From Schmidtea polychroa (taxonomy: Eukaryota), in the NCBI GenBank assembly GCA_044892525.1, contig CM097885.1, positions 558,001 through 622,000 on the forward strand: a DNA stretch of 64,000 nucleotides, given 5' to 3'. Of the stretch, positions 10,911 to 31,422 are shown piece after piece (the stretch's first letter is position 1; every line of letters begins with the position of its first letter). Below the pieces are notes generated by a model. It searched no databases. It was not told the DNA's origin and saw nothing but the letters and a program-made list of their open reading frames with translations. The position numbers and the translations under genes are program-made.

Positions 10911-11084
10911 TGCTTTATATTAAAAAAAAAAAAAAAAAAAAAAATCAAATTTTATTTTAATCAATTGACGGCACTTGGCCAAGAAGGGGAGAACTTCTCA
11001 CCCTTAGAGTTCTGTAGCTTTTAATTCAATGACCGATGGATACCAGAGTTATAAACTCAGGTATCAGAACGTGGGTTTCCAAAT

Positions 11085-11545
11085 GGGTTGGAGTAATTGG
11101 AGTATTTGGAGTAATAGGAGCAGTTGGAGTAATTGGAGCAGTTGGAGTAATTGTAGCAATTGGAGTAATTGTAGCAGTTGGAGCAATTGTAGCAGTTGGA
11201 GTAATTGGAGCAGTTGGAGTTGGAAATCGTCATTTAGTTGGGAGAAAGATGGTGTCAGATTTATGGATTCTGCAATAGTGGTAACATTATCGTGGTAGAG
11301 TTTTGGGAAGTCATCATCGTAGGAGTTTTCAGTAGTTTAAAGATTTGGTGCAAGTGTTCAGAATTTAGAGGTTTGGATTGGTCTTGATAGGTGGAGGTGA
11401 TCGATATTGCAAGATTATTGATGTTGGTGTATATTTCACTGTTTGGATTGATTGTAGTAGTTGGCGTGAATGGAGCAGTTGGAGCAAATAGAGCGGTTGG
11501 AGTAAATGGAGCAGTTGGAGTAAATGGAGCAGTTGGGGAGTTGGT
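11085..11545. repeat. 9/18-bp minisatellites (GCAGTTGGA/GTAATTGGA) in two blocks; minus strand reads as degenerate Pro-Thr-Ala-Pro-Ile/Phe-Thr repeats
   Basis: Periodicity visible at 11085-11225 and 11455-11545. Confidence 0.75.
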
Positions 11546-11787
11546 TGAATTAGAGAGTTTAGATATTTATATAGTTGATTAATAATAGTTAATAATATAG
11601 ATAATAACCATAAAACACAAATAGAATAGGATAATGCTCTGAGTACATATTATATACGAAATATCTGGAATTCAAGATTGGTTTAATAAGAGACAAAGAA
11701 AATTGTAAAAGGGTGATATATAGTAACCATAGAATACATATAAATAAAAGATGCTTTGGCTACAAAAAGATAGATATATAAGTATAA

Positions 11788-14155: not shown

Positions 14156-14357
14156 AATTAAATTTATGTGAATAATAAAATATATATTGTGAATTATTTG
14201 ACTTCGTTAATTAAAATATGTTTTATCATTTAATAATTCATTTGTCCAATTAATTTAGATAATTAGTTTTAAGTAAGAATTATTATTTATCATGAAAAAC
14301 TTTGCTTTGTTTTGAAAAATTAATGCCCATTTTATTTTAAATTAACACAGCTTTATT

Positions 14358-15298
14358 AGTAGTGTGGTTATATACCCAACCAAAACAGCCCTCCCAACAA
14401 AACATGCCTCCAAATCACTTAAGCTATTAGAAAAACAACCTAAAACTTTTACTTTTATAGTATTTTAACCCTATATTTTGAAAACAACCACCCTTAATGA
14501 CTCTAACTGTTTTAATTTTTAAAGCCTCAAACTCAAAAGCATCAAACTAAAAAGAGAATAGAAAAGAAAATGGCATTATGAAAAAGTTAGAGGGCTATTT
14601 GATCTTTATCAGATTATTGATTTTAAATTATATAAATTAAAAAATAAATGAAAAATAGTAAAACTGCTCTGAGGGGACAGTGGTATTTTTTTTTTTTTCA
14701 CTGTCCCCTCAACAGTTTTTTTTGATCCGGTTCATTTTTTTTATTTATCAACCTCTTTCGTTTATCGAATCTCTTCCAATATACAAGCTGGCCAGACTCA
14801 TACATCAGAATCAATCCGATAATAGCAGCACACCTTATTATTCGCTTCTCGCTCGAATACGATTTCATCGGCGTTTTAAGTGTGCTGCTCGAAAGTACAA
14901 ATGAATTCGAAAGCGAATTCGAAAGAGGTCCGAAAACAACTGAGAAATAAATGTGCACATTAAAGAATCGATCCGGGGGTGTTCGAAAGACAGGTGGCGA
15001 TAATTACCGGTTCGCCACCATCACCCGTTTCAATATTTTTTTTTTCATATTTATGTTTAAAAAATAATTAATTAATAAAAAAATAAAATAAAATAAAATA
15101 AATAAAATAAAATATACAAGTACTTTATAAATATAAGATACCCACACTATTTTCAATATTATTTTCAAATTTTTAATATTATTTTATGTTGAAAAAAAAA
15201 CTAACCTCAGATGTGATTTGAACCGCTAGCATTTTGAACCACTGTGTCAGTCTAGCCCACTGCGCCATCAAGGTTTGGATTTTTTGTCATTTTTTAAA
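14358..15298 (+). repeat. Left TIR of Polinton A (~940 bp)
   Basis: Reverse complement of ~30472-31416 with scattered substitutions and small indels. Confidence 0.96.
15192..15274 (-). ncRNA. Candidate tRNA-derived Pol III transcription unit within the left TIR
   Basis: A box TGGCGCAGTGG (15267-15257), B box GGTTCAAATC (15224-15215), terminal stem ACCTTG/TGAGGT, T9 terminator; cloverleaf arms not conserved. Confidence 0.55.
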
Positions 15299-15379
15299 TT
15301 TTTATTATAAAAAATGAATAATATAAATCTTAAAAAATAAAATGAAAACAGGGTATCCAATAAAAATTTTTTTCTAAAA

Positions 15380-16012
15380 ATGAATTGTAATATTTGCAAT
15401 AAAGTTTTTAAAAATAAAACTGGATTAATTTCTCACTTAAAATCGAAAGCTCATTTATTAAAAGAAAATAATTTTAATGATACAAATTCAAAACTTTGTC
15501 TTAAATGTAAAGGAAGATTTCTACATTCTGGATATAATAAACATTTTGAAAATTGTATCGGGAAAAATAGAGAAATATTTACATGTCCTCATTGTAACTT
15601 TTCAACAAAACTAAATTTCTATTATTTAGAACATATAAAAGAATGTAAAAATAAAAAACAAAATTCTGACGATGAGGAATGTCATTCAGAAGGAGAGCCT
15701 GATCATGTTGAAAGAGAAAAATATAACTGGGATAATTTTAATCATATAGATGAATTTCAATTAAAAATTAATGGGCCTGCAACTCCTGGAGAATATATAA
15801 ATAAAAATAAAAAAAATATTAAAAATTCTTTCACTGATTCTTTAAAAAATTATAAGCCGACAAGGTATAATGTTATAAAATATAAAATTATAATCAAAGC
15901 AAAATACTGGCGAGGAGCAGAAGAAAAGACAACACCCTTAGATGTTGAAATGGAATACCTTTTAAATATTTATTTTCAATTAAAGGATTTGATAAAACCA
16001 TCAAAGAAATAA
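15380..16012 (+). CDS. Zinc-finger protein (three C2H2/C2HC-like fingers); probable frameshifted N-terminus of pPolB
   Basis: CNIC..H..H, CLKC..H..C, CPHC..H..C; overlaps the open pPolB frame from 15949. Confidence 0.8.
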   Translation: MNCNICNKVFKNKTGLISHLKSKAHLLKENNFNDTNSKLCLKCKGRFLHSGYNKHFENCIGKNREIFTCPHCNFSTKLNFYYLEHIKECKNKKQNSDDEECHSEGEPDHVEREKYNWDNFNHIDEFQLKINGPATPGEYINKNKKNIKNSFTDSLKNYKPTRYNVIKYKIIIKAKYWRGAEEKTTPLDVEMEYLLNIYFQLKDLIKPSKK

Positions 16013-19000
16013 TTAAAGCAGCAGAAGCAAAACAAGAGGAAGTAGAAAATGAATTAGGAGATTCAAACTTAGTATTCAACTCTTTCCAAACTTTAGTGAT
16101 TGATTATTGGAGAGGATTACCACCCAATTCTAAATCTTATATTTCTACACCCTTTAAATCTAAAAATGTTATAAATGTACAGAATAATGATAACAAATGT
16201 TTCATCTGGTCAATACTTGCACATTTACATCCTCAAGCAACAAATCCCCAAAGAGTTTCAAAATACAAACAATATGAAAATGAATTAATATTTCCCAAAG
16301 GATTCAAACACCCAATGAAACTAGAAGACATTCCAGAATTTGAAAAATTAAATAATCTTAAACTTAATATTTATGAACATGTTATAGGGAAAGAAATTAT
16401 TCCAATTTATATTTCAGATAGTGGAACCAAGGATAACGGAGCACAGGACAATGAGATATATCTTTTAATCTTGGAACAAGAAAATAATCAACATTATGTT
16501 TTAATAAAAAACTTTCAAGCTTTTAGATCTCCAGAGAATCCAACTAGTGGAGGAGGAACATGTAAAAGATGTCTTCATTATTCAACAACTAAAAACTCTA
16601 TGATTAAACATACAAGATTTTGTGAAAAAGATGATCCAGCTTTAATTAAAATGCCTAATAATCCCAAGATGTATTTTAAAAACTTTTCAAATTTACTACA
16701 AACAGTTGGAGTTCTTTATGGTGACTTTGAATCTATAAACCATAAACAAGATTTGGTTTATCAATATTTAAAAATAATAGAAAAAAATAAACTCATGGAT
16801 TTATGGAACTCCTCAGGAGAGAAGATGAAACCAGAGAGGATGAAAGCCTTTCTAAGAAAAAGAAATAAACCTAATAGTGTTAAAAAAACTAAACAATTAT
16901 CATCTGCTTATAAATTATTATTTAAAAGTAATTATCCTGAACTCATAGAATCTAGAGAATATTCAATTCTAGGAGGTACCCCTGAAGAAGTCTTGAATCA
17001 TTTTACTAAAAATATAAATGATCTAGAACATGAAATATTTAAAATATTAAAAACAAAGTATCCTCAAAATATTTCTAATCAACAACAACAAGAATATGAA
17101 AATACTTCCAACTGTTGGATGTGTAAACAGAATATTCTTCCTGATGAAAAAGTTATAGATCATGATCATTTAAAAAAGGAAAATAATTATCGAGGAGCAG
17201 CTCATAAAAATTGCAATCTTAATTGCCATACTCCTAAATTTATACCTGTTATATTTCATAATCTTTTTGGATATGACATACATCTATTTATTAAACACCT
17301 CGCAGCAAATGCTAAAAACTCTTTCAAAGTTATCGGCTTAACAAAGGAAAAATATAAATCAATTGAATATGGAAAATTAAAATTTATAGACTCGTTAAAC
17401 TTTCTCCAAATGTCTTTAGATGCAGTAGCAAAAACAATGAAAGCAGAAAATTTTAAAATCACTGGAGAATTCTTGGAAAAAAATAATATTCCTCTAGAAG
17501 AATATCCTACATGTTTAGCAAAAGGAATATATCCTTATGACTATGTTGACTCGTTTGAAAGATATAATGAAACAAGTCTTCCTAGCCAAGAAGATTTCTA
17601 TTCACAACTTCAAAAAAATCATATTACAAATCAAGAATATTCTCGAGCAAATAAAATGTGGGAATTATTCAAGTGTAAAACTTTAGGAGAATATACAAGT
17701 ATGTATTTATCCTTGGATGTTTATATTCTAGCAGATTGCTTTGAAGAATTTACAAAATCTTTTGTTCTTAAACCCTATAATTATATAACTGCACCCTCTT
17801 TAGCTTGGGATACTATGTTATATACCATTTGGACTTCAAATATAGAAGATGCTGATAAAATTATAGATCTTTTAACTAACCTCGATATGTTTAACCAAAT
17901 TAAAACAAACATTAGAGGAGGAGTCTCTTCAGTAATGGGGAATAGAGAAATAAAAGCTAGAAATGCAATAACTACTAGCCGAAGACTATCTAAACACCCT
18001 GATGATCCATATATGAAAATTAACAATGAGGAATTAAAAGAATTATTAGAAACAATGAAAAATCCTATATTTATACTTTATATAGATGCAACAGCTTTAT
18101 ATTCAGGAATTATGACTCAATATTTACCAATGAGTGATTTCACTGAAATAGAGAACCCAACAGATGACCTTATGAAAGAAATACTTTCAACATCGAAAGA
18201 TTCTCCAATAGGTTACTTTATAGAATGTGACCTCGACTATCCAGATGATATAAAATCAGGAACAAGATATTTTCCTTTAGTTCCCATAAGCCGACAAGGT
18301 ATAATGTTATAAAATATAAAATTATAATCAAAGCAAAATACTGGCGAGGAGCAGAAGAAAAGACAACACCCTTAGATGTTGAAATGGAATACCTTTTAAA
18401 TATTTATTTTCAATTAAAGGATTTGATAAAACCATCAAAGAAATAATTAAAGCAGCAGAAGCAAAACAAGAGGAAGTAGAAAATGAATTAGGAGATTCAA
18501 ACTTAGTATTCAACTCTTTCCAAACTTTAGTGATTGATTATTGGAGAGGATTACCACCCAATCCTAAATCTTATATTCCTACACCCTTTAAATCTAAAAA
18601 TGTTATAAATGTACAGAATAATGATAACAAATGTTTCATCTGGTCAATACTTGCACATTTACATCCTCAAGCAACAAATCCCCAAAGAGTTTCAAAATAC
18701 AAACAATATGAAAATGAATTAATATTTCCCAAAGGATTCAAACACCCAATGAAACTAGAAGACATTCCAGAATTTGAAAAATTAAATAATCTTAAACTTA
18801 ATATTTATGAACATGTTATAGGGAAAGAAATTATTCCAATTTATATTTCAGATAGTGGAACCAAGGATAACGGAGCACAGGACAATGAGATATATCTTTT
18901 AATCTTGGAACAAGAAAATAATCAACATTATGTTTTAATAAAAAACTTTCAAGCTTTTAGATCTCCAGAGAATCCAACTAGTGGAGGAGGAACATGTAAA

Positions 19001-20724
19001 AGATGTCTTCATTATTCAACAACTAAAAACTCTATGATTAAACATACAAGATTTTGTGAAAAAGATGATCCAGCTTTAATTAAAATGCCTAATAATCCCA
19101 AGATGTATTTTAAAAACTTTTCAAATTTACTACAAACAGTTGGAGTTCTTTATGGTGACTTTGAATCTATAAACCATAAACAAGATTTGGTTTATCAATA
19201 TTTAAAAATAATAGAAAAAAATAAACTCATGGATTTATGGAACTCCTCAGGAGAGAAGATGAAACCAGAGAGGATGAAAGCCTTTCTAAGAAAAAGAAAT
19301 AAACCTAATAGTGTTAAAAAAACTAAACAATTATCATCTGCTTATAAATTATTATTTAAAAGTAATTATCCTGAACTCATAGAATCTAGAGAATATTCAA
19401 TTCTAGGAGGTACCCCTGAAGAAGTCTTGAATCATTTTACTAAAAATATAAATGATCTAGAACATGAAATATTTAAAATATTAAAAACAAAGTATCCTCA
19501 AAATATTTCTAATCAACAACAACAAGAATATGAAAATACTTCCAACTGTTGGATGTGTAAACAGAATATTCTTCCTGATGAAAAAGTTATAGATCATGAT
19601 CATTTAAAAAAGGAAAATAATTATCGAGGAGCAGCTCATAAAAATTGCAATCTTAATTGCCATACTCCTAAATTTATACCTGTTATATTTCATAATCTTT
19701 TTGGATATGACATACATCTATTTATTAAACACCTCGCAGCAAATGCTAAAAACTCTTTCAAAGTTATCGGCTTAACAAAGGAAAAATATAAATCAATTGA
19801 ATATGGAAAATTAAAATTTATAGACTCGTTAAACTTTCTCCAAATGTCTTTAGATGCAGTAGCAAAAACAATGAAAGCAGAAAATTTTAAAATCACTGGA
19901 GAATTCTTGGAAAAAAATAATATTCCTCTAGAAGAATATCCTACATGTTTAGCAAAAGGAATATATCCTTATGACTATGTTGACTCGTTTGAAAGATATA
20001 ATGAAACAAGTCTTCCTAGCCAAGAAGATTTCTATTCACAACTTCAAAAAAATCATATTACAAATCAAGAATATTCTCGAGCAAATAAAATGTGGGAATT
20101 ATTCAAGTGTAAAACTTTAGGAGAATATACAAGTATGTATTTATCCTTGGATGTTTATATTCTAGCAGATTGCTTTGAAGAATTTACAAAATCTTTTGTT
20201 CTTAAACCCTATAATTATATAACTGCACCCTCTTTAGCTTGGGATACTATGTTATATACCATTTGGACTTCAAATATAGAAGATGCTGATAAAATTATAG
20301 ATCTTTTAACTAACCTCGATATGTTTAACCAAATTAAAACAAACATTAGAGGAGGAGTCTCTTCAGTAATGGGGAATAGAGAAATAAAAGCTAGAAATGC
20401 AATAACTACTAGCCGAAGACTATCTAAACACCCTGATGATCCATATATGAAAATTAACAATGAGGAATTAAAAGAATTATTAGAAACAATGAAAAATCCT
20501 ATATTTATACTTTATATAGATGCAACAGCTTTATATTCAGGAATTATGACTCAATATTTACCAATGAGTGATTTCACTGAAATAGAGAACCCAACAGATG
20601 ACCTTATGAAAGAAATACTTTCAACATCGAAAGATTCTCCAATAGGTTACTTTATAGAATGTGACCTCGACTATCCAGATGATATAAAATCAGGAACAAG
20701 ATATTTTCCTTTAGTTCCCATAAG
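15852..20724 (+). repeat. 2,434-bp internal tandem duplication in the pPolB gene
   Basis: ATAAG microhomology at 15852, 18286 and 20720; near-identical translations. Confidence 0.96.
15949..18312 (+). pseudogene. polB: Truncated first copy of pPolB (ends after motif A at the duplication junction)
   Basis: Same translation as the 18530 ORF (two differences) up to FPLVPI, then out-of-frame junction sequence. Confidence 0.9.
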
Positions 20725-22123
20725 AAGAAAGATTGATATCAACGAACTTCCTGAATGGCAAATCTCACAAGATAAACCTCCAACAATGAAACTTCTTTGT
20801 GATCAAACAGATCGAAGGTTTTATCTTTGTCACTATAGACTCCTCCAATTTTATCTCTCACGAGGAATGATATTAAAAAAAGTTCATAGTGTCATAAGAT
20901 TTAAACAAGCTCCATTCATGAAAGCTTTTATCGAGGAGAACATTAGGTGTCGAAACATTGCAAAAAGAGAAGGTAACCTTTTTAAAGATAATAATTATAA
21001 ACTTTTAAACAATTCAGTCTTTGGGAAAACAATGGAGAATGTTGATAAATATACTCATATTGAACTCCTAACAAATACTACCAAAGATATTAAGCGTTAT
21101 AATCGCATGCTAGGAAAGCCTACATTTAAAAACGCACAAGTATTTTCTGAAAATCATACTGCAGTAGAATTAAAAAATTATGAGAAAACATATAACAAAC
21201 CAATATTTATAGGGTTTACAATTTTAGAACTTTCAAAATTACAAATGTATGAAACATATTATAACATCTTACAACCTATATACGGAGCAAATATATCAAT
21301 GCATGCAATGGATACAGATTCAATGTTTTTAACAATAAGAACTCATGATTTACAAAAAGATATGAAAGAAAATCCTATACTTTCAAATTTAATAAATTCA
21401 TCTGGAGAACTATTTTCGTTTAAAGATGAAAAACCTTTTACTCCTATAGAAAATGGAATATTTATTCGTGCTAAACAATATTCATACGAAACATTTAGAA
21501 ACCCTGAATTTATAACTAGATCATTTATATTTAAAACTCCAGAAACAGAAGAAACCATTACACATAGATATCCTATATTTCCTAAAGGACCAGAGGGACA
21601 AGAAGAAAAACCTGTAAAGGATAACAGATGTAAAGGAATACAGAGAGTGGTGGCAAAGAATCTTTCTCATCAAGATTATATAGATACATTGAATCCAAAT
21701 CATAAAGATAAAATTGATGAAATACATCAACTTAAAAGTGAAAACCATGATATTCACTTGATAGAATCTCAAAAAGTATCATTATCAAATTATGATGATA
21801 AGAGATTCATACTAAGTGATTTAAAGACAACTCTACCTATTGGAAATAATTTAATTCCTATAATAAAAAATCTAGAAAAGTTGAATAAGTTATATGATAC
21901 AAAGATTACTGATCTTGATATTTATAATGTTGAAATTATTTATCCCGAGAGAGAAATCGAGAAACCTTTATATTCTCAAGTTTTTAATCCTATATGTTTA
22001 GAACTTAAATATTTTAATACTGATCCTGAATATATAAAAGGTCTAAGTGATAAAGAATTTAAAGATCATAAATTAATGATTCATAGGTTGGCTTTAACCA
22101 TAACTGAAACCAACGATATTTAA
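18383..22123 (+). CDS. polB: Protein-primed family B DNA polymerase with EndoVII-like insert (open frame begins ~18383; ORF track start 18530)
   Basis: Exo YGDFES and FHNLFGYD; DHDH...YRGAAH..CN; YIDATALY, KLLNNSVFGK, MDTDS, AKQY, DDKR. Confidence 0.96.
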   Translation, partial: NGIPFKYLFSIKGFDKTIKEIIKAAEAKQEEVENELGDSNLVFNSFQTLVIDYWRGLPPNPKSYIPTPFKSKNVINVQNNDNKCFIWSILAHLHPQATNPQRVSKYKQYENELIFPKGFKHPMKLEDIPEFEKLNNLKLNIYEHVIGKEIIPIYISDSGTKDNGAQDNEIYLLILEQENNQHYVLIKNFQAFRSPENPTSGGGTCKRCLHYSTTKNSMIKHTRFCEKDDPALIKMPNNPKMYFKNFSNLLQTVGVLYGDFESINHKQDLVYQYLKIIEKNKLMDLWNSSGEKMKPERMKAFLRKRNKPNSVKKTKQLSSAYKLLFKSNYPELIESREYSILGGTPEEVLNHFTKNINDLEHEIFKILKTKYPQNISNQQQQEYENTSNCWMCKQNILPDEKVIDHDHLKKENNYRGAAHKNCNLNCHTPKFIPVIFHNLFGYDIHLFIKHLAANAKNSFKVIGLTKEKYKSIEYGKLKFIDSLNFLQMSLDAVAKTMKAENFKITGEFLEKNNIPLEEYPTCLAKGIYPYDYVDSFERYNETSLPSQEDFYSQLQKNHITNQEYSRANKMWELFKCKTLGEYTSMYLSLDVYILADCFEEFTKSFVLKPYNYITAPSLAWDTMLYTIWTSNIEDADKIIDLLTNLDMFNQIKTNIRGGVSSVMGNREIKARNAITTSRRLSKHPDDPYMKINNEELKELLETMKNPIFILYIDATALYSGIMTQYLPMSDFTEIENPTDDLMKEILSTSKDSPIGYFIECDLDYPDDIKSGTRYFPLVPIRRKIDINELPEWQISQDKPPTMKLLCDQTDRRFYLCHYRLLQFYLSRGMILKKVHSVIRFKQAPFMKAFIEENIRCRNIAKREGNLFKDNNYKLLNNSVFGKTMENVDKYTHIELLTNTTKDIKRYNRMLGKPTFKNAQVFSENHTAVELKNYEKTYNKPIFIGFTILELSKLQMYETYYNILQPIYGANISMHAMDTDSMFLTIRTHDLQKDMKENPILSNLINSSGELFSFKDEKPFTPIENGIFIRAKQYSYETFRNPEFITRSFIFKTPETEETITHRYPIFPKGPEGQEEKPVKDNRCKGIQRVVAKNLSHQDYIDTLNPNHKDKIDEIHQLKSENHDIHLIESQKVSLSNYDDKRFILSDLKTTLPIGNNLIPIIKNLEKLNKLYDTKITDLDIYNVEIIYPEREIEKPLYSQVFNPICLELKYFNTDPEYIKGLSDKEFKDHKLMIHRLALTITETNDI

Positions 22124-22201
22124 TTTTTTAATAATAAAATGTCGACAATTAATTTAAGCAACTATAGCAACCTGATCTACTTTTTTAAAAATACACCCAT
22201 T

Positions 22202-22762
22202 TTATAAGTAAGAATTCTTTAACCATTTTTCTCGAGATGTTTTTTTATTACTTATAACATTAGCCACCATGCCCTCCCTTTTTAATCTTATAACCTCATT
22301 CTTTATATCTTGTATTATTTGATTTGATTTCATTATTTCTTCGTCTGTCAGGATTCCATCTTCCAAAGCTTTTAATTGAAATAAAAATAATTTAGAGATT
22401 CCTAATTCTATTGATAAACAAACTTCTCTATATAAACTTTTCTTTTTAGAAGTATAAGATAATGAAACTATTTCAGTTAAGAAACCATCAGCCACAGAAA
22501 TACTTCCAAGTATTACAGGTGCAAGAGTAACAACTGGTAAAGTTATGGGTAAAATAACTGTTAATATTGCAGATGCAAATCCTAAAGAATAATCTATAAC
22601 TTTTAAAACTGTATTCCCTTTATTCCATCTATTTTTAATTTTTTTATAATGCTTTAATAAATCTTGTAAATGTAAGGTTTCTGATTTAAATTCTTTTACT
22701 CTCATAATTTCAAGTTCTGTGGGAGCCGAGGCCTTGGAAGAATAATATCCTGATGATCTCAA
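22202..22762 (-). CDS. Predicted two-TM membrane protein, resembling the 'GasderminX'-type ORF of adintoviruses (tentative); start uncertain
   Basis: Central hydrophobic pair, upstream in-frame IYPEL...SAP, C-terminal KALEDGILTDEE. Confidence 0.55.
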   Translation of the reverse strand: MRSSGYYSSKASAPTELEIMRVKEFKSETLHLQDLLKHYKKIKNRWNKGNTVLKVIDYSLGFASAILTVILPITLPVVTLAPVILGSISVADGFLTEIVSLSYTSKKKSLYREVCLSIELGISKLFLFQLKALEDGILTDEEIMKSNQIIQDIKNEVIRLKREGMVANVISNKKTSREKWLKNSYL

Positions 22763-22806
22763 TTCTGGGTAAATTTTTTCTTCTCTTACTTCTTCCTTTT
22801 TAATAT

Positions 22807-23817
22807 TTAAAAAAATAAGACTTTATTCTTCTGAGCACCATCTGGCACCAATACTCGGATGTCAAAAGAAACTCTTGTTGAGAGGATATCTTTATACAAT
22901 TCTCTCAATGCTTTACGAACTTCATCAACATCAACCTTTTTTTCATAAAATATTAAATCTATATATTGTACAAGTGAACTAGAAAAATGAATATTCTTAC
23001 TTTTAACTTTATGTAGTCCATGTGAATGAGTATTAACATACCAATCTCCGTGTGGTAAATCATAACTAGTCATTATAACATCACCCTTTTCAAGCTTACT
23101 ATTATAATCACATTTCACAAACCATTTCATTCTTTCATTATCATCATCAAACAAAAAGAAATAAGGATCAATAATTTTTACAACCATAAAAACACCCCAT
23201 TCTTTACTGTTTGTTGTTATTAAACTTGGTTCTATAAAATGTTTATATGTATGGGGTAATAATGTTTTATTCTGTTCTAATTCAGCAGCTCTTTTTCTAA
23301 TACTATGTGTGGTGTTAATGTGTGTTCCATGAGACTCTAAATTTGAAATTCTTTTATTAAATGATGTAATCATCTCATTTATTATTTTATATATTGTATT
23401 AAATTTAGTATTCATAATTTGTTTATCTTTAGAATTTAATATAGCAGTATTTAATTTTACAACTTGTTCAGTTAACAGACTTTGTAACTTGTCAAATTTA
23501 TCATTAAATCGTTGTTCGATATTATTAAGCTTTGATTCCATTGAATCAATGTTTGTTGTTAATGAACTTTCAATTCTTGTTGTTGTTAAATCAGTAAAAT
23601 TTTTAACACCATCAACATATTTTTTATTAACTGCATCAGCTTCATCAGTTGGTAAAGATAAATCTTTTATCTTGTGTCCATTTAAATTTAAATCTCCTTT
23701 CATTGAATCACCTCTTTCATTAATATATTTATTTTCTGTTAAAGTTAATATTTCTTCTGTATTAAACCCTGTTTTTATTGTTCTACCACCTCTATTACAT
23801 GGAATATAAGAACTCAT
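22807..23817 (-). CDS. Fiber/spike-like virion protein
   Basis: GDSMKGDLNLNGHKIKDLSLPTDEADAVNKKYVD motif, then a coiled coil, an RKR/AA site and a globular C-terminus; adjacent to the penton gene. Confidence 0.65.
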   Translation of the reverse strand: MSSYIPCNRGGRTIKTGFNTEEILTLTENKYINERGDSMKGDLNLNGHKIKDLSLPTDEADAVNKKYVDGVKNFTDLTTTRIESSLTTNIDSMESKLNNIEQRFNDKFDKLQSLLTEQVVKLNTAILNSKDKQIMNTKFNTIYKIINEMITSFNKRISNLESHGTHINTTHSIRKRAAELEQNKTLLPHTYKHFIEPSLITTNSKEWGVFMVVKIIDPYFFLFDDDNERMKWFVKCDYNSKLEKGDVIMTSYDLPHGDWYVNTHSHGLHKVKSKNIHFSSSLVQYIDLIFYEKKVDVDEVRKALRELYKDILSTRVSFDIRVLVPDGAQKNKVLFF

Positions 23818-23841
23818 TTATTAATAATTTAAAATGAATCT

Positions 23842-24605
23842 TCAAACCTGTTTCAAATGTAAATACATTGAAATCTCTTCTCCATTAAAATCAATCAATT
23901 CTCCTTCTTGATTAAGAATTTTAAAATTAATATCCATTATATATTTTCTACATAAAGGTAAATAATTTGGAGGATTCATTCTTTCAACTATTTTATATCC
24001 CATAGGAACTGTGTTTGAGGGAAAGGAATATAAAACATTTGTTTGTTTACCATTATTATAAAAACCTGTTATACAATCGCAATGAATATTTATTGTGTTT
24101 GTATTTATTATTTTTATAATATTTTCTGATGTTATTATTTTATCTTCTTTTATTGTTATATCCATAGGTTTAAATCCTAAAACTGTGTAAAGAAACAATT
24201 ATCTAAAAAACTAATTTTTAAATTCTTCAAAGTCATTACACATTTTGAAGTTGGTATATCCATTTTAATTTTAATACCTTCATTTGTTTTTTTAGAAAGT
24301 ATATCATTTAAATCTTTTATCTCATATGCCCCAGGTTCTATTGTTATAATTTCTGGTTTATGCCCATCACGAGTTTGAATAGTAAATTTATTATTATCTT
24401 TAGTTATATTAAAAATAGTATTATAAGCACAAAACCATAATAGCCCCAATTCATAATTTAAATTTTGATCTAATTTAATTGAATCTTGAAAGTTTATAGT
24501 AAAGTCTGATTCTTTTGAATTTATAGATAAAGTTCTTGAATATTTATCTGACATTATGTTTACCATTTTTTTTAAATTATCTTCCGGAGGCTTGTGAAGC
24601 TCCAT
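23842..24605 (-). CDS. Minor capsid protein (penton, single jelly-roll), split by one frameshift near 24195
   Basis: FTINF..IKLD..YELGL, IEPGAYEIKDLN, VLGF, INIHCDCITG.Y.NG, NQEGELIDFNGE motifs. Confidence 0.85.
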
Positions 24606-24653
24606 TTCTTTAGTAGTAAATTCATATAGTAAAAATCCTTATAGTAAAAATCC

Positions 24654-25118
24654 TTATAGTAGAGATTCTAGATCATTATAAATTTCTTGAATTATAGATT
24701 CAAAATCCTGCGTATGCCCCTTTCCCTCTTCCTTATTCAATCTATACAAAACATATAAACTTAAAATACCACATATTTTAGTATTCAAAGGTTGAACTTG
24801 TAAAGAGTTAAAAGTATAACCATTTGGGGAATCAATCGGAGAACCCCTCAAGAGATAATCTTCAACTTCTTTAGTAGGTTTAATCCCAAAAGAATCAAAG
24901 TAGATAGATTTCTTATATATACAAACCCAATGAGATCCTTTTTCATTTGAATTTTGATAATTGATTATTATATTCAGGGGACTCTCCAGACTTGATAATT
25001 CATCATTCATTAATATTTTAATTTTTAAATTTAAATAATTTGCATAATCTTTTAAATCAAAATTTGTTTTTGCATTTATTCCAAATGTTTTTAAAAAATC
25101 TAATATTGAAGGAGTCAT
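24654..25118 (-). CDS. Adenain-like cysteine protease (maturation protease)
   Basis: GSHWVC, YFDSFG and QVQ...CG catalytic motifs. Confidence 0.93.
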   Translation of the reverse strand: MTPSILDFLKTFGINAKTNFDLKDYANYLNLKIKILMNDELSSLESPLNIIINYQNSNEKGSHWVCIYKKSIYFDSFGIKPTKEVEDYLLRGSPIDSPNGYTFNSLQVQPLNTKICGILSLYVLYRLNKEEGKGHTQDFESIIQEIYNDLESLL

Positions 25119-25140
25119 TTTGTATTTTAAAACTTCGTAT

Positions 25141-26022
25141 TTATAACTTCGTATACTTATTAAATTTATCTTTTGAAATTATTCCTTGTTTTAACAAATC
25201 TTTAGAAATCTTTAAAATATCAGAATCTAAATTATTATGTCCTGCTTTCCTTGCAGCTAATAGTTTTCTTAATTCAATAAAAAGATTGATGGGATTTGGT
25301 TTACCACCTTCACTAATTAATCCCTCTCCCTCTGTAACAACATAACCCTTTTCATTTTTATTTAAATAATTCTTTAAATCTTGAATATATTTTGCTTTAG
25401 AACTAGCTCTTATTAATCTTATTAAATTTAAATATTTTTTAATTTCTTCAACATCATCTGAAGAATATCCACAAAGTAATCTATAAAAATCATCTGTAAA
25501 TTCAAAGTCTAAATATTCATTATTATAAACATTTTGTGAATGAATACGTGATTTATTTTCTGAATTTGAATATAAAGTAAAGTTTTGTTTATTAATTGTT
25601 ATTATTTGATATCCTTCAGTATTAGTATTAAATGTGGGTCTAATTGAAGGAGGTAAATCATCTCTAATTTTAGGATCAACTTTAAGAGGTTTTGTTTTTA
25701 AAAACATTTCTTCTTCTTCCACATTAGAAATTCTTCTGCGTTTTCTTTGATTTCTTTCAGGATGGTTTTCACTGGATTCTTTTTCTTTATCCTGCCACTC
25801 TAGTTCTTTTATTTTTTGTTTTTTATCTTCTAACTCTTTAAATTTTGCTTGCTCATTGAAATCTTCCAACTCTTTTATAGCTTTAATTGTTGGCCCCTTT
25901 TGTTGTGTTATTACCTCATTTAATATTATAGATTCAGCATGTTGAGTTGTATCTTTTTTATTATATTTATCTTGTTCTGATTGTAATTTTTTTAAAAGTG
26001 CTAATCTTTCTTCATATACCAT
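25141..26022 (-). CDS. Polinton protein of unknown function
   Basis: 293-aa ORF; GEGL followed by P..L..EL..LLAARKAGHNN, a C-terminal pattern I recall from Polinton ORFs. Confidence 0.65.
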   Translation of the reverse strand: MVYEERLALLKKLQSEQDKYNKKDTTQHAESIILNEVITQQKGPTIKAIKELEDFNEQAKFKELEDKKQKIKELEWQDKEKESSENHPERNQRKRRRISNVEEEEMFLKTKPLKVDPKIRDDLPPSIRPTFNTNTEGYQIITINKQNFTLYSNSENKSRIHSQNVYNNEYLDFEFTDDFYRLLCGYSSDDVEEIKKYLNLIRLIRASSKAKYIQDLKNYLNKNEKGYVVTEGEGLISEGGKPNPINLFIELRKLLAARKAGHNNLDSDILKISKDLLKQGIISKDKFNKYTKL

Positions 26023-26044
26023 TTTAATGGTATCAAAAATGGTA

Positions 26045-26623
26045 TCATAGTTCGAAGGGCTTCAAGTATAATCCTTTACCATTTTTAGTTTTACAAAGGC
26101 ATCCATTCTTTAAAGATTTACATATTTTTTTTAAATCTTCTTTATCTTTTGAAGATAAAGATTCAGATGTAGAAATTTGATTTTTTAAAAAATCATTTAA
26201 ACCTCTACCTTTATAAGGATCAAGATAGAGACCTTTGCCCTGAGACTTTTGCCGACTCCCCTCATATGGATTAAGATAGAGACCCTTTCCAACGGACACT
26301 CCCCCTTTAGCTTGCCCTACCTTCTTCATTGAATCGATTTCAGTTTGTAGTTTTTCTTTTTCTAGGTCTGTCTTTTGAGATTCTTTAGCTTTTTGAACTG
26401 TAGTTGCAATTCCTCCAGCTAATCCAGCAGCACCTGATAAACCAGCAATGATTGCAGGTATTAAAGCAGCTAATGGAAGAATGCCACCTTCTTTAGCTTC
26501 GTGGAGCTTCGCTCTAACTTGTTCTTTTACATGTTTTCCAATAAAATATTTTTTACCATCAATTACTACTGATTTATTTTTATTTGAATTTATTAATTCT
26601 TGCAAAGATTCTTCAGTTGTCAT
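26045..26623 (-). CDS. Adenovirus pX-like core/membrane-active precursor
   Basis: GGILPLAALIPAIIAGLSGAAGLAGGIAT; repeated GKGLYLxP(Y/F). Confidence 0.7.
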   Translation of the reverse strand: MTTEESLQELINSNKNKSVVIDGKKYFIGKHVKEQVRAKLHEAKEGGILPLAALIPAIIAGLSGAAGLAGGIATTVQKAKESQKTDLEKEKLQTEIDSMKKVGQAKGGVSVGKGLYLNPYEGSRQKSQGKGLYLDPYKGRGLNDFLKNQISTSESLSSKDKEDLKKICKSLKNGCLCKTKNGKGLYLKPFEL

Positions 26624-26638
26624 TTTATAATAAACAAA

Positions 26639-27442
26639 ATGGATGTACGAAGTCCAATAATTTGGAAACCAATTTTAAATAGACATAAGAGTAAATTTAA
26701 TAATAAAGTATTTCCTGATAATTTTAGATTATTAATTGTTGGTTCTTCTGGATGTGGAAAGAATGTACTTGTTTTGAGAATGTTACATGAAGATGATTTT
26801 TTAGATTATAATAATTTAATCTTTTATTCTACAACCATAAATCAACCAGAATTACAACTTTTGAAATGTGGATTTGAAAATAAATTAACTAAAAAAGCAA
26901 TAATTGATATTTTTAAAAATCAACATAGGTGTCCTGAAGAAGTTTTTCAACCTTGTGATATGGTTGATTGGTATAAGGAAAAGATTTTAGAATCAGATAT
27001 TAGTAATAAAAATGATTATATTTGTGAAGAAGGGCAGGAGGCAATTCAAGTTTTATTCTCTAATAAACCTGAAGATGTTTTACATTGTGATTTACTTCCT
27101 AAAGATAAAAAGAATCTAGTTATATTTGATGATGTTGTTAATATGAAAAATCAAGAGATTCAAAAGAGTTACTTTACACGAGGTCGACATAATAATTGTA
27201 ATGTTATTTATATATCTCAAACATATTATGCTTTAGATAAAAATTCAATAAATAATTCCAATTGTTTTATATTTTTTAAATTAGATCGCCGTGATAAGAA
27301 TATGATTTATAATGATTTATTTTCAAATGTTGAACCTGATAAGAATATGTTTGATATGTTTGTTGATAATCATTGGAAAGAAAAATATAATTATATTTAT
27401 TTGGATAGAGAAGAAGCTGAAATATGGAAAAGTTTGTTTTAG
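26639..27442 (+). CDS. A32/FtsK-like genome packaging ATPase
   Basis: Walker A GSSGCGKN, Walker B LVIFDD, TRGRH, YISQTY. Confidence 0.95.
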   Translation: MDVRSPIIWKPILNRHKSKFNNKVFPDNFRLLIVGSSGCGKNVLVLRMLHEDDFLDYNNLIFYSTTINQPELQLLKCGFENKLTKKAIIDIFKNQHRCPEEVFQPCDMVDWYKEKILESDISNKNDYICEEGQEAIQVLFSNKPEDVLHCDLLPKDKKNLVIFDDVVNMKNQEIQKSYFTRGRHNNCNVIYISQTYYALDKNSINNSNCFIFFKLDRRDKNMIYNDLFSNVEPDKNMFDMFVDNHWKEKYNYIYLDREEAEIWKSLF

Positions 27443-27453
27443 GGCTTGTCGAC

Positions 27454-28262
27454 TTAAAAATCTGTTTTCTGTAGTTCATTATTATAAAATCTACCTAATA
27501 TTTTTTCATTATTTAAATCAAAGATGCTATATGTTATTGGAGTTATATAATGTATTTTATTTATAATAAAAATTTCATTTGTCCATTTTGCTGTGAATCC
27601 TTTTTCAAATTTATTTTATATTTAAATATTCTTACTCGGTCACCAATTTTAAACTTTGGTTTTTCAATAACATCATTTTCAATATTTACCACTTTAATGG
27701 TTTCAGGCTTCATAGAAGCATTTAAAGGTGTTAATTTTATAGAACTATGTACATCATTATTATATTCATTTACAATCTTTTGTAACAATTCATTGTTCCA
27801 TTTTTGTTTTCCAATAGCAGTAAAATATTTCCACATTTTATTTTTTAATGTTCTATTTAATCTTTCAACTACGACTGCTTTTCCTTCGTTTTCTGTTGAA
27901 TATAATTTAATATCATTTTCATTTAAAAACTTTGTAAAAACTTTGTTATAAAATTCTGTTCCTTTATCACACCATAAATATTTTGGGATTCTTTGATTTT
28001 CTTCAAATATATTTTCAAATGCTTCTGTAATAGAATATCCTGTTTTATTTTCTAAACATCTTGCAAAAGCAAATCTTGTATATAAATCTATTACAGTTAA
28101 AATTATTTTATATTTTTCAGGGTCTGATGATTTGGGCATAAAGACTAAATCTGCAGACCATGTTTGATCTTTTTCATGTACTTGAACTTTTAAATATTTT
28201 TTATTTTTTCTAAATTCATGGTGTAATTCCTTTGCATATTTTATTTCTGATTCTGTTGGGGT
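27454..28262 (-). CDS. Retroviral-like (rve) integrase; frameshift near 27617; no Met before the first catalytic Asp
   Basis: AKELH...WSADL, WCDKGTEF, VERLNRTLK; the shifted frame gives KFEKGFTAKWTNEIF...FYNNELQKTDF. Confidence 0.92.
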
Positions 28263-28858
28263 TTATAAACTAGTCTTGGCTGTACTCTCGAGGGATCTTT
28301 CAATCTCTGCTTGTTCGATAATCTTTTTATAAGCAACATCTTTTGCTTTCCTAGGAAGTCTTGCACCCATGGTGATCGGACTGTGTCCTAAGCCTATGAA
28401 AATCTTACCTTTCATTGCTAATTTAACTAGAGCTCTTTGAATCTTTTCTTGGGTTGATGGATTTTGGTTACTATTTAAATCATGTATTAAATTCACATCT
28501 GCAACATGTCTATCTCTAAGATTTGTTGAATTGTATGCAATGTCATGTTTTAAAGCTGCTTGATCAATTCTATTTATTGGTTCTTCTCCTTGTTTGGGAT
28601 TATTATTTTCATCTAATCTAATATCTAGACGTGTTCCTGGTCCAGTATAGTTGTGTTTAAATAAATGTCTTTCACCTGGATATTTTTCTGTAGTAAAAGG
28701 TTTTAATATTGAAGATGTTGTTTTTGAAGATTGCAAATCGCCTCCAGCTCGTGGAATTAGGTCACCTACTGTATGTTTTTTAGTTTTAAGATGATTTGCT
28801 TTATGATTACTTGACAATTACAAGTTTTACATCTCCAATAGGGTTTATTTAAAGACAT
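28263..28858 (-). CDS. Parvovirus VP1-type phospholipase A2 domain (PLA2X) with a frameshifted N-terminal C2H2 finger
   Basis: HNYTGPGTRL...PINRIDQAALKHDIAY; ATG at 28858 gives MSLNKPYWRCKTCNCQV, joining HKANHLKTKKH after a 1-nt shift. Confidence 0.88.
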
Positions 28859-28875
28859 TTTAAAATGTTAAAATA

Positions 28876-30168
28876 TTAAGAATCTCCCCTAACATTTTCA
28901 ATAATTGAAATCTTTCCACCATATAATTTCATTTCTATTTTCTTTTCTTCTAATATTAATGTATATACTTTAGCTTTAAAATTAGAATCCTTTGTTACAT
29001 GAAGTGTAACATCAACATTATTTATGGCTAGGCGATCATCTTGGTCTGATACATTTTTACAAAATATAGAATATAAATTTTTGAAATCTTCTAAACTTAA
29101 TTGCGGTTCAACTTTGAAATCATAACATGTTTCAATATAATTTAGATATGGGAATATGTTTTCATTATTTTCAATATTAAATTCCATTCTATTTATTGGA
29201 TAATAAGAACTATTTAATTGAATTTGGATTGTTTTTAAATTATCATCTCCAATCTTTTGAATAAATAGATTGTTATTTTTTTGGAAAGATGAATCTGTTT
29301 CTTTGAATCCAATCAAGATATATCTTGGTCGGTATGCTAAATTTGCTACCTTTATAGAATATGTTGAACCCTCTGTCATACTAAATTCACTACAGATTCT
29401 ATTTAAATAATTTACATTTATAGACTTGTTGGAATTTAATCTTTCAAGGAGTTTAATCTCAGAATGTGGGTTTAATGTCCATTCAGGTATATGTAATTCA
29501 AGTGTTGATAATTTTAATTTAGCTTTTGTATCTACAGCTCCATAGAACAATCTTTTATCACCTTCTACTCTATTACAGATGAATTCTATAAAAACATTAT
29601 GAAGTATACGATTATAGTTTTGAAGGAATCCAAACAAGTGTTTTAATTCAAAATAACCTTCAAATGTTTTAGATTTATAAAGTTCAGCTCTTTTATGGTA
29701 ACCATGGTTTACATCTAAACCATCTTTATCTAAATCCCCTTTATTAACATCAGGAATCCAACCTGTTAATTCACCATATTCGTTTTTATAATCACAACCA
29801 GTCAAAATAAAATTTAACATTGTAGAATATACTCCCGGATGCAAAACAGTTTCAATTTCTGATGATCCTAGTTTTAATCTCATGTTGGAGAATAAATTTG
29901 GAAAGAAATTATTTTCTAGGGTTATATCTTTGTTTGCTTCAATTTCTAATTCTACTTTGTAATATAATTTGGCATTACAAATATCTATTGGGTTTGATGT
30001 TTGAAGAGATTGAAAAACTATATCACCCCTACGATTTAAGTTTGCAATAGATCCTGAAGTTGGCGAGATTTTTAAAATATCATTTTTTTTAATTTCATGA
30101 GTAAATTCTTTATTATAATCAAGATTTAATTTATTTTTTTCTTGAATTTTAAGATTTATATTATTCAT
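28876..30168 (-). CDS. Major capsid protein (double jelly-roll, hexon-like), ~430 aa
   Basis: Size, beta-rich pattern, NNFFPNLFS.MRL.LG..EIE, LKHLFGF..Y, RPRYILIGF and QLNSSYYP motifs; position in the element. Confidence 0.88.
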   Translation of the reverse strand: MNNINLKIQEKNKLNLDYNKEFTHEIKKNDILKISPTSGSIANLNRRGDIVFQSLQTSNPIDICNAKLYYKVELEIEANKDITLENNFFPNLFSNMRLKLGSSEIETVLHPGVYSTMLNFILTGCDYKNEYGELTGWIPDVNKGDLDKDGLDVNHGYHKRAELYKSKTFEGYFELKHLFGFLQNYNRILHNVFIEFICNRVEGDKRLFYGAVDTKAKLKLSTLELHIPEWTLNPHSEIKLLERLNSNKSINVNYLNRICSEFSMTEGSTYSIKVANLAYRPRYILIGFKETDSSFQKNNNLFIQKIGDDNLKTIQIQLNSSYYPINRMEFNIENNENIFPYLNYIETCYDFKVEPQLSLEDFKNLYSIFCKNVSDQDDRLAINNVDVTLHVTKDSNFKAKVYTLILEEKKIEMKLYGGKISIIENVRGDS

Positions 30169-30254
30169 TTTTATATATAAAAGTTGATAAAAATAAAATT
30201 TGAAAAATAAAAATAAAAATAAAAGGGAATTCATTAAAAAAATAATTTATAAAA

Positions 30255-30476
30255 ATGATTGACTTTATTGAAAGAATGACAAATGAATTGAATGAAGTTA
30301 AACTTAAGAGAATAAAAAGAAGAGAAGAAGAACCATTAGAATACATTAAAGAGTTGGTGGTAGAGAATGAAAAGTATCGACATTTTTACATGAATGCAGT
30401 AGAAGTAGCTGAGAAAAGATTAGATAAAATAAAACAATTACAGGAAAGAATAAAAGAACTTGAATCGATTATTTAA
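30255..30476 (+). CDS. Small coiled-coil protein abutting the right TIR
   Basis: 73-aa E/K/R-rich heptad pattern. Confidence 0.55.
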   Translation: MIDFIERMTNELNEVKLKRIKRREEEPLEYIKELVVENEKYRHFYMNAVEVAEKRLDKIKQLQERIKELESII

Positions 30477-31416
30477 AAAAATGACAAAAAATCCAAACCT
30501 TGATAGTAGTGGGCTAGACTGACACAGTGGTTCAAAATGCTAGCGGTTCAAATCACATCTGAGGTTAGTTTTTTTTTCAACATAAAATAATATTAAAAAT
30601 TTGAAAATAATATTGAAAATAGTGTGGGTATCTTATATTTATAAAGTACTTGTATATTTTATTTTATTTATTTTATTTTATTTTATTTTTTTATTAATTA
30701 ATTATTTTTTAAACATAAATATGAAAAAAAAATATTGAAACGGGTGATGGTGGCGAACCGGTAATTATCGCCACCTGTCTTTCGAACACCCCCGGATCGA
30801 TTCCGGTAATGTGCACATTTATTTCTCAGTTGTTTTCGGACCTCTTTCGGATTCGCTTTCGAATTCATTTGTACTTTCGAGCAGCACACTTAAAACGCCG
30901 ATGAAATCGTATTCGAGCGAGAAGCGAATAATAAGGTGTGCTGCTATTATCGGATTGATTCTGATGTATGAGTCTGGCCAGCTTGTATATTGGAAGAGAT
31001 TCGATAAACGAAAGAGGTTGATAAATAAAAAAAATGATCCGGATCAAAAAAAACTGTTGAGGTGACAGTGAAAAAAAAAAAAAAAAAATACCACTGTCCC
31101 CTCAGAGCAGTTTTACTATTTTTCATTTATTTCTTAATTTATATAATTTAAAATCAATAATCTGATAAAGATCAAATAGCCCTCTAACTTTTTCATAATG
31201 CCATTTTTTTTTCTATTCTCTTTTTAGTTTGAAGCTTTTGAGTTTGAGGCTTTAAAGATTAAAACAGTTAGAGTCATTAAGGGTGGTTGTTTTCAAAATA
31301 TAGGGTTAAAATACTATAAAAGTATAAGTTTTAGGTTGTTTTTCTAATAGCTTAAGTGATTTGGAGGCATGTTTTGTTAGGAGGGCTGTTTTGGTTGGGT
31401 ATATAACCACACTACT
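30472..31416 (-). repeat. Right TIR of Polinton A
   Basis: Reverse complement of the left TIR, ending ACCACACTACT. Confidence 0.96.
30497..30577 (+). ncRNA. Right-TIR copy of the Pol III-like unit with an altered A box
   Basis: TAGTAGTGG replaces TGGCGCAGTGG; B box and T9 run intact. Confidence 0.4.
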
Positions 31417-31422
31417 TTTATT

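What the first reader, a model, noticed from the sequence alone, without database searches (positions are those of the whole stretch)
15192..15274. tRNA-sized Pol III unit in the TIR: a VA-RNA-like gene?
Seen on the minus strand: ACCTTGA-TGGCGCAGTGG (A box at tRNA position 8), GGTTCAAATC (B box), a 3' TGAGGT pairing with the 5' end over 71 nt, then T9. The cloverleaf is replaced by GCTAG/CTAGC and ACTG/CAGT stems. It points outward, divergent from pol; the right-TIR copy has an altered A box. Known: adenoviruses make VA RNAs from internal A/B-box promoters, and TFIIIC sites can insulate chromatin. Inference: a viral Pol III RNA or insulator; I know of no such description for Polintons. A captured SINE head is the alternative.
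Basis: partly seen in the sequence, partly recalled or inferred. Interest (0 to 1): 0.75.

Follow-up and report, generated by a model that had tools for sequence, protein, structure and literature searches.

The report
Polinton ends carry Pol III cluster
The ends of a very abundant virus-like transposon in an animal genome carry several small tRNA-type promoter units, and next to the one first noticed lies a larger, strongly folded RNA gene candidate that looks more like the small RNAs adenoviruses use against host defences, although neither has yet been shown to be made by RNA polymerase III.

Summary
Observation confirmed: an 83-nt A-box/B-box/T9 unit ("A") sits at the inner edge of both terminal inverted repeats (TIRs) of a Polinton (14358-31416). 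It is not a dispersed SINE: 30 of 30 fetched copies lie in Polinton TIRs. Among sister copies the box positions carry no inherited change (0 of 18) while 21 of 54 other positions vary. Its fold is not significant and the proposed stems are not conserved, so A is a maintained promoter cassette, not a VA-like RNA.

It belongs to a cluster. Some sister ends add units B (from host tRNA-Cys) and C. 160 bp outward, each intact TIR examined holds "D", about 370 nt with A/B-like boxes at tRNA spacing, fold z about -7 to -9, pair-preserving changes at 9 of 9 variable pairs, a pre-miRNA-like hairpin and terminal T runs. Contigs of runs guessed to be RNA pile up on D (weak hint). D is the better VA/TMER analogue.

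Pol III transcription and function are untested. An earlier scan note saw the B module nearby and read it as rDNA spacer (unverified here). My literature searches found no Polinton precedent.

The parts
14358..31416 (.). Polinton/Maverick element with AG...CT ends and a 6-bp target-site duplication (14352-14357, 31417-31422)
   Evidence: Pfam pPolB, rve integrase, A32 ATPase, double jelly roll
14358..15299 (.). left terminal inverted repeat, about 940 bp
30471..31416 (.). right terminal inverted repeat
15192..15274 (-). unit A, left: tRNA-sized A-box/B-box/T9 cassette (the finding)
15257..15267 (-). A box of unit A
   Evidence: invariant at constrained positions
15233..15240 (-). upstream repeat of the B-box motif (16-nt period, lacks the C61 equivalent); a third repeat in 2 of 32 haplotypes
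15215..15224 (-). B box of unit A, 33 nt after the A box
15192..15200 (-). T9 terminator-like run
30497..30577 (+). unit A, right copy, with a private 2-nt-shorter A box
14651..15031 (-). unit D, left: about 370-nt structured RNA gene candidate, same direction as A
15007..15017 (-). A-box-like motif of D (one departure from the usual box), inside an 8-bp hairpin
   Evidence: 25 of 30 copies identical
14965..14974 (-). B-box-like motif of D (GATCGA type, palindromic), 33 nt after the A box, in a T-arm-like hairpin
   Evidence: core kept in 30 of 30
14764..14820 (-). 25-bp pre-miRNA-like hairpin in D
   Evidence: z -5.5; helix 5
14651..14716 (-). terminal hairpin with A-rich loop followed by T4/T5 runs (likely 3' end of D)
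30737..31123 (+). unit D, right copy
30255..30476 (+). 73-aa ORF pointing into the right TIR; in 9 of 20 sister right ends units C and B lie just upstream of it (absent from this copy)

Best explanation
Unit A is a maintained tRNA-type internal promoter cassette, one of a tandem cluster of two to five such cassettes at the ends of this Polinton family: [C]-[B]-ORF73-[A]x1-3-[D], all pointing outward. Shown: the anatomy, restriction to TIRs, conservation of boxes and T run while everything else in A drifts, tRNA-Cys origin of B, and a conserved strand-specific fold of D. Inferred: host TFIIIC binds the boxes and Pol III makes a 75-85-nt U-ended RNA from A and a roughly 370-nt RNA from D. Inferred, less firm: what is selected in A, B and C is the act of binding, transcribing and terminating, not the RNA's shape. 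That would give a Pol III-occupied barrier at both ends of the gene body, keeping the ends and D open against heterochromatin and giving D a clean 5' end. D would be the functional RNA, most likely a double-stranded-RNA mimic or small-RNA precursor acting on the host's RNA-silencing machinery.
For: 30 of 30 fetched copies lie in Polinton TIRs; 702 genome matches, control 0. In 20 right ends chosen by capsid gene, not by the unit, A is seen in 18, D in 17 and B plus C in 9; the three ends without D are truncated or interrupted. Inherited variation falls at 0 of 18 box columns against 21 of 54 others (Fisher p 7e-4) and against 27 of 122 fourfold capsid sites (p 0.016). B matches the 5' half of host tRNA-Cys(GCA) at 28 of 32 positions and scores 26.7 bits on the tRNA model with acceptor and anticodon stems broken. 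An 82%-identical relative of B in a nearby satellite keeps both boxes and the T run. D folds at z -7.3 and -8.7. All 9 pairs with a variant shared by at least 3 of 30 copies stay paired, each through a G-U form that would mismatch on the other strand; 2 of the 9 show two-sided changes. Weak hint: contigs of three runs guessed to be RNA cover D far more deeply than the outer TIR, while genome copy numbers differ only 2.5-fold (2915 against 1161). Precedent for box-only conservation in terminal repeats: PMC10886601.
Against: No run is on record as RNA, all are contigs, and the tool says such depth cannot rank parts of a gene or show strand, ends or polymerase. Alignment columns are not independent (few lineages, mosaics), so the p values are optimistic. 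The upstream B-like repeat is as invariant as the true B box, so conservation is not confined to canonical boxes. D's boxes are non-canonical, its B-like box is a palindrome, and a T4 run lies at 14936, inside D. Depth falling away from D's A tract in run X1 also fits oligo-dT capture of a Pol II 3' end. No barrier activity was tested. Conservation was seen within one family only; none of 28 distant capsid relatives showed such units, though few if any reach a TIR.
Confidence: 0.5

Rival explanations
1. Unit A's own 75-85-nt RNA is the functional product: an abundant tRNA-sized decoy (La protein, tRNA-processing enzymes, Argonaute loading), the first reader's VA-like reading.
For: Boxes, length and terminator are kept. 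The commonest form has a -11 kcal/mol terminal helix, and mean terminal pairing beats base shuffles (0 of 500). Contigs of guessed-RNA runs X1 and X2 cover A (weak). A tRNA-like head alone carries function in MHV68 TMERs (PMC8223928, passage).
Against: Fold no better than shuffles for 3 window stretches and 3 sister A units. No 5'/3' covariation (p 0.35). Non-box positions vary more than fourfold coding sites (39% against 22%, p 0.03). A, B and C share almost nothing in the middle.
Confidence: 0.2
2. Passenger: decayed tRNA or SINE heads picked up by the element (for B possibly from a host spacer or satellite) and spread by TIR copying, with no role.
For: B derives from host tRNA-Cys. B and C are missing from 11 of 20 right ends. 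The family is young (capsid 94-99% identical).
Against: Boxes are spared while the rest varies above the neutral rate. Four diverged cassette types all keep box spacing and orientation. A has no target duplication, A tail or dispersed copies. The Polinton B is closer to tRNA-Cys than the satellite form is (28 against 21 of 33).
Confidence: 0.15
3. D is not a Pol III RNA. It is the structured 3' end of a Pol II or read-through transcript (for example a piRNA or siRNA source), or a single-stranded DNA fold used in protein-primed replication; A is then a lone promoter or terminator.
For: An AATAAA and A tracts lie at D's 3' part, loose T-run ends sit at that tract, and X1 depth falls with distance from it. 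The 73-aa ORF points toward the TIR. G-T wobbles also form in single-stranded DNA (knowledge). Planarian Polintons are piRNA targets (PMC8532177, passages).
Against: D's two boxes lie 33 nt apart, exactly as in A, at D's 5' end; two such box pairs in one TIR never arose in 5000 shuffles. D ends in a hairpin followed by T runs. The box core is kept in 30 of 30 copies. The outer TIR shows no excess fold (z -1.0).
Confidence: 0.12
4. Chance likeness: a GC-rich TIR motif bound by an element protein.
For: TIRs are expected to hold binding sites for replication and integration (knowledge). No Rfam or ARAGORN hit for A.
Against: The pattern is absent from shuffles, and sister unit B is demonstrably tRNA-derived.
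Confidence: 0.03

Closest known systems
Adenovirus VA RNAI/II (and EBV EBER1/2)
   Same: Tandem small genes with internal type 2 Pol III promoters in a linear dsDNA virus-type genome. D is highly structured with long helices, as VA RNAs are (PMC4378190, passages).
   Different: VA RNAs are about 160 nt; A is about 75-85 nt and unstructured, D about 370 nt. No Rfam VA match. Here the genes lie in the terminal repeats. The PKR target of VA RNAI is, from recall, vertebrate-specific.
MHV68 TMERs (tRNA-miRNA-encoded RNAs)
   Same: A cluster of diverged tRNA-like Pol III units; D joins an A/B-box head to a pre-miRNA-like hairpin and ends in T runs (PMC8223928, PMC4378190, passages).
   Different: A, B and C terminate straight after the tRNA-sized part. 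D's head has no acceptor stem, so RNase Z release is unsupported, and its hairpin lies about 140 nt downstream. No miRNA shown.
Helenus, Ajax and Cassandra (TRIMp3 retrotransposons)
   Same: A tRNA- or 5S-derived sequence in the terminal repeat, conserved around boxes A and B while the RNA fold is lost (PMC10886601, abstract and passages). This matches A, B and C.
   Different: Those are non-autonomous LTR retroelements whose promoter is thought to drive the transposition RNA. Here the element is a DNA virus-like Polinton, and the units point outward and terminate at once, so they cannot transcribe the element.
tRNA genes in polinton-like viruses and virophages
   Same: Small tRNA-type genes carried by a relative of Polintons (PMC12220804, passages).
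   Different: Those pass ARAGORN or Rfam as intact tRNAs and are read as codon supply. These units fail ARAGORN and cannot form a cloverleaf.
tDNA / TFIIIC chromatin barriers (recalled, no paper read)
   Same: Clustered A/B-box units flanking a domain, with function resting on factor binding, not on the RNA.
   Different: Known from host chromosomes; not tested here; not recalled from a mobile DNA virus.

Membership tests
Polinton/Maverick | long TIRs with AG...CT ends and a 6-bp target duplication | tested here: met
Polinton/Maverick | pPolB, retroviral-type integrase, packaging ATPase, double-jelly-roll capsid | tested here: met
type 2 Pol III gene (unit A) | A box and B box at tRNA spacing followed by an oligo-T run | tested here: met
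type 2 Pol III gene (unit D) | A box and B box at tRNA spacing followed by an oligo-T run | tested here: inconclusive
   33-nt spacing and terminal T runs present, but boxes non-canonical and one internal T4
type 2 Pol III gene (A and D) | transcribed by Pol III through TFIIIC | not testable with these tools
   contigs only, run type not on record
tRNA | cloverleaf with acceptor, D, anticodon and T arms | tested here: not met
   no ARAGORN or Rfam hit for A; B below the gathering score with broken stems
adenovirus VA RNA | sequence and structure match to the VA family, about 160 nt | tested here: not met
   no Rfam match; lengths about 80 and 370 nt
adenovirus VA RNA | highly structured dsRNA mimic | tested here: inconclusive
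   not met for A; met in silico for D
adenovirus VA RNA | blocks dsRNA sensing or Dicer | not testable with these tools
   needs experiment
TMER | tRNA-like head cut by RNase Z, followed by pre-miRNA hairpins in one transcript | tested here: inconclusive
   A terminates at once; D has a head without acceptor stem and a 25-bp hairpin
tRNA-derived SINE | independent dispersed copies with target duplications and a 3' tail | tested here: not met
   30 of 30 copies in TIRs with shared flanks; diverged dispersed copies cannot be excluded because searches list only the best or first rows
TRIMp3 (Helenus/Cassandra) | small-RNA-derived boxes conserved in the terminal repeat, fold lost | tested here: met
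TRIMp3 (Helenus/Cassandra) | non-autonomous LTR retrotransposon with PBS and PPT | tested here: not met
   host element is a Polinton

The most novel reading that the evidence does not exclude
An animal Polinton family encodes, in its terminal repeats, a cluster of tRNA-derived Pol III genes headed by an abundant 370-nt structured RNA (D) that works as a VA/TMER-like decoy or precursor in the host's RNAi/piRNA machinery, shielded by promoter-only cassettes (A, B, C). It would be the first viral-type non-coding RNA system in Polintons, present in roughly 2900 copies, and a parallel to, or model for, the tRNA origin of adenovirus VA RNAs.
Probability: 0.3. Interest if true: 0.88.

Novelty: new variant of a known kind. 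Interest (0 to 1): 0.7.

Why it matters
Polintons are relatives of adenoviruses and are described almost only by their proteins. How they persist at over a thousand young copies under piRNA silencing is open. A Pol III cluster in the TIRs gives two direct tests: whether the ends are TFIIIC-bound barriers, and whether D is an abundant RNA that engages Dicer, Argonaute or PIWI proteins. It also shows a route from a host tRNA gene (B, from tRNA-Cys) to promoter-only cassettes and to a structured RNA. Standard tools (ARAGORN, Rfam at gathering score) miss all four units, so the same thing may be overlooked in other Polintons.

Tried and rejected
ARAGORN and Rfam gave nothing for A and ARAGORN nothing for B or C. 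A suppressor or selenocysteine tRNA reading of the inner TTCAAA motif was dropped: no arms form. A host tRNA parent for A was not found: a D-stem pattern gave 0 matches, and A aligns no better to tRNA-Cys than to tRNA-Lys or tRNA-Arg; only these three host tRNAs were compared. Covariation of A's terminal helix was not found.

Sequencing runs: no RNA holder listed. Units B and C had little or no contig cover, which proves nothing. Repeats were skipped at both ends of D, so its ends cannot be read from that call.

Distant relatives: 0 capsid relatives in viral contigs. 28 in metagenome contigs (72 kb) had no A/B/T unit and no tRNA, but in most of those with upstream sequence the capsid gene lies next to another gene, not a TIR, so this is not a test. 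One 18-nt viral match to D is chance.

The rDNA-spacer origin of the B module could not be tested: one search listed 40 of 117 candidates, 21 satellite-type copies and 19 at 82-84%, without DNA. TIRs of other Polinton families in this genome were not examined.

Literature: searches found no report of Pol III or tRNA-like units in Polinton TIRs; 'polinton' with 'VA RNA' gave 0 papers. Subscription papers, Repbase reports and supplements were not seen.

Full report
1. The observation. The full pattern occurs once in the window and never in 5000 shuffles of the TIR or 200 of the window. ARAGORN and Rfam see nothing, and the fold is no better than shuffles (z +0.5 to +0.7). The middle of the unit is a 16-nt-period repeat of the B-box motif.

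2. The element. It runs from 14358 to 31416, with TIRs of about 940 bp, AG...CT ends and a 6-bp target duplication. It encodes pPolB, integrase, packaging ATPase and a double-jelly-roll capsid. The genome is 781 Mb; an earlier scan note (e1-7879924) calls the host a probable flatworm, which I did not test. The family is young and abundant: 93 scored capsid matches at 97-100%, and 2915 matches to a motif from the TIR.

3. Not a dispersed SINE. The core of the unit has 702 matches, control 0. All 30 copies fetched, of 41 matches listed, lie in Polinton TIR context, 8 of them at right ends with an intact A box. The short right-hand A box in this window is therefore a private lesion. A generic A-box/B-box/T5 pattern returned 42 distinct places in its first 100 rows (first 3.4 Mb of contig 1): 24 of type A, 10 of a type B and 8 of a type C (counted by eye). 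These searches list only the best or first rows, so old dispersed copies are not excluded.

4. What is conserved in A. I took 20 right ends chosen by capsid gene and extracted units by their downstream flank: 76 anchor hits, 69 true units, 32 haplotypes. Four haplotypes with large indels were left out of the column count. Variation shared by two or more haplotypes falls at 0 of 18 constrained box columns and 21 of 54 other columns (p 7e-4). The same counts hold for the 17 haplotypes from capsid-chosen loci plus the window form, against 27 of 122 fourfold capsid sites (boxes lower, p 0.016; non-box higher, p 0.03). Three of 32 haplotypes have a damaged constrained box position, each seen once. 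Caveats: the columns are not independent, and the upstream B-like repeat is equally invariant. Structure is not conserved. The longer internal stem has both arms in 3 of 32 haplotypes, and 5' and 3' ends re-paired at random bind as well as native pairs (p 0.35), although the window form has a good terminal helix (-11.0 kcal/mol). A occurs in one to three tandem copies per end.

5. A is one of a cluster. Nine of 20 sister right ends carry two more tRNA-sized box/T-run units, C and B, between the capsid gene and a 73-aa ORF. B matches the 5' half of the host tRNA-Cys(GCA) gene at 28 of 32 positions through the anticodon and scores 26.7 bits on the tRNA model (cut-off 29) with acceptor and anticodon stems broken. 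A's own tRNA parent is not identifiable (17 of 33 against tRNA-Cys); its kinship to B and C rests on the shared layout and 3' arm and is inference. The 290-bp B module also occurs in a tandem array near this locus at 82% identity, with both boxes and the T run kept. The Polinton form is the closer one to tRNA-Cys (28 against 21 of 33). Another note (e1-7879908, not tested) reports a 7SL head in a Polinton derivative of this genome.

6. Unit D. About 160 bp outward of A, in both TIRs (14651-15031 minus; 30737-31123 plus), lies a second box pair with the same 33-nt spacing. Its A-like box departs from the usual box at one position, and its B-like box is of the GATCGA type, recalled from initiator tRNA. 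The segment folds at z -7.3 and -8.7 on the outward strand, against -6.1 inward and -1.0 for the outer TIR. It has a 25-bp pre-miRNA-like hairpin (z -5.5) and a terminal hairpin followed by T4/T5 runs. In 30 of 44 distinct copies aligned, 99.1% of cells of 82 pairs are paired. All 9 pairs with a variant in three or more copies stay paired, each includes a G-U form that would mismatch on the other strand, and 2 change on both sides. The sequences are close kin and the structure came from them, so this supports but does not prove selection on the fold; a single-stranded DNA fold would look similar. D varies less than fourfold sites (9 of 122 paired and 13 of 156 unpaired columns). One T4 run lies inside D at 14936.

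7. Reads. No listed holder is on record as RNA. I laid four runs with small shares (X1-X3 guessed RNA, organism A, two studies; X4, organism B) on L030, which holds A identical to the window's plus B, C and D. Summed contig depth over D reached 20036, 9873 and 65 in X1-X3, against at most 126, 104 and 0 over the outer TIR; over A it reached 1081, 408 and 9. Genomic copy number differs 2.5-fold between D and the outer TIR. The tool warns that such depth cannot rank parts of a gene or show strand or ends, so I count this as a weak hint that D is transcribed. X1's profile also fits oligo-dT capture at D's A tract. In X3 the piece over A is part of a longer contig joined to capsid-side sequence, so it shows no discrete RNA. 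X4 shows that D-like sequence exists in a second organism.

8. Mechanism. Most likely (0.5): TFIIIC and Pol III act on an outward-pointing cluster at both ends. A, B and C are kept as promoter-terminator cassettes whose occupancy shields the ends and D from silencing, and D is the functional RNA, a dsRNA mimic or small-RNA precursor. Anatomy, conservation and the origin of B are shown; binding, transcription, barrier activity and D's function are inferred. If the host is a planarian, Polintons there are under piRNA-guided chromatin silencing (PMC8532177, passages read), which would supply the pressure. Rivals: A's RNA is itself the decoy (0.2); passengers (0.15); D is a Pol II 3' end or a DNA fold (0.12); chance (0.03).

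9. Comparison and novelty. Viral Pol III RNAs are known: VA RNAs of about 160 nt, EBERs and TMERs (PMC4378190 and PMC8223928, passages read). Box-only conservation in terminal repeats is known from Helenus, Ajax and Cassandra (PMC10886601, abstract and passages read; no mention of Polintons). Intact tRNA genes are known from polinton-like viruses (PMC12220804, passages read), and the adintovirus paper mentions tRNA once, in a figure legend on other viruses (PMC8502044, passage read). Searches (listings only, apart from the papers named) found no report for Polinton TIRs; subscription papers, Repbase entries and supplements were not seen. A is not a VA RNA, tRNA or SINE by the features tested; it works like a TRIMp3-type or tDNA-barrier cassette. 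D works, in silico, like a VA/TMER-type RNA but is not a member of either family. Verdict: new variant of a known kind; interest 0.7.

Noticed in passing
window 15852-18290 and 18286-20724: A 2.43-kb tandem duplication (99.9% identical) of the front of the pPolB region makes this copy about 17 kb, whereas many paired TIR matches in the genome lie about 13-14 kb apart. True duplication or assembly artefact not decided.
   Followed up: partly
L030 about 2180-2215 and 1945-1985 (minus strand): Units C and B are each followed, beyond the T run, by a related short hairpin with a 4-nt loop, which suggests the two modules are an old tandem duplication (read by eye).
   Followed up: no
L111 194-483 (G000:C1:145793-146082): A tandem array of about 1.24-kb period (19 copies listed at C1:145.8-168.5 kb, ending about 3 kb from a Polinton end) carries an 82% relative of the B module with both boxes and the T run intact.
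   Followed up: partly
run X4 (organism B): Contigs of a second organism cover D with up to 14 differences per piece. One loose end gives the B-box-like loop a different but still pairing stem, as does copy L069. Single contig, read by eye.
   Followed up: partly
L100 5775-5830: A distant Polinton (35% capsid identity) has, between two convergent genes, a B-box-like hairpin sharing 15 letters with unit A variants, followed by an A run; no good A box. Possibly chance or a SINE remnant.
   Followed up: partly
L031, L054, L081: Host tRNA genes (Lys, Arg, Cys) occur as long tandem arrays; the tRNA-Cys pattern has 994 matches.
   Followed up: no
window 26045-26623 and 24654-25118: ORFs without a Pfam hit that look like the adintovirus hydrophobic core protein and the cysteine protease (labels recalled, not tested).
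   Followed up: no
window 31968-32486, 38217-38774, 8968-13569, 35768-37624: Fragments of other pPolB genes, two reverse-transcriptase ORFs and a hAT transposase flank the element.
   Followed up: no
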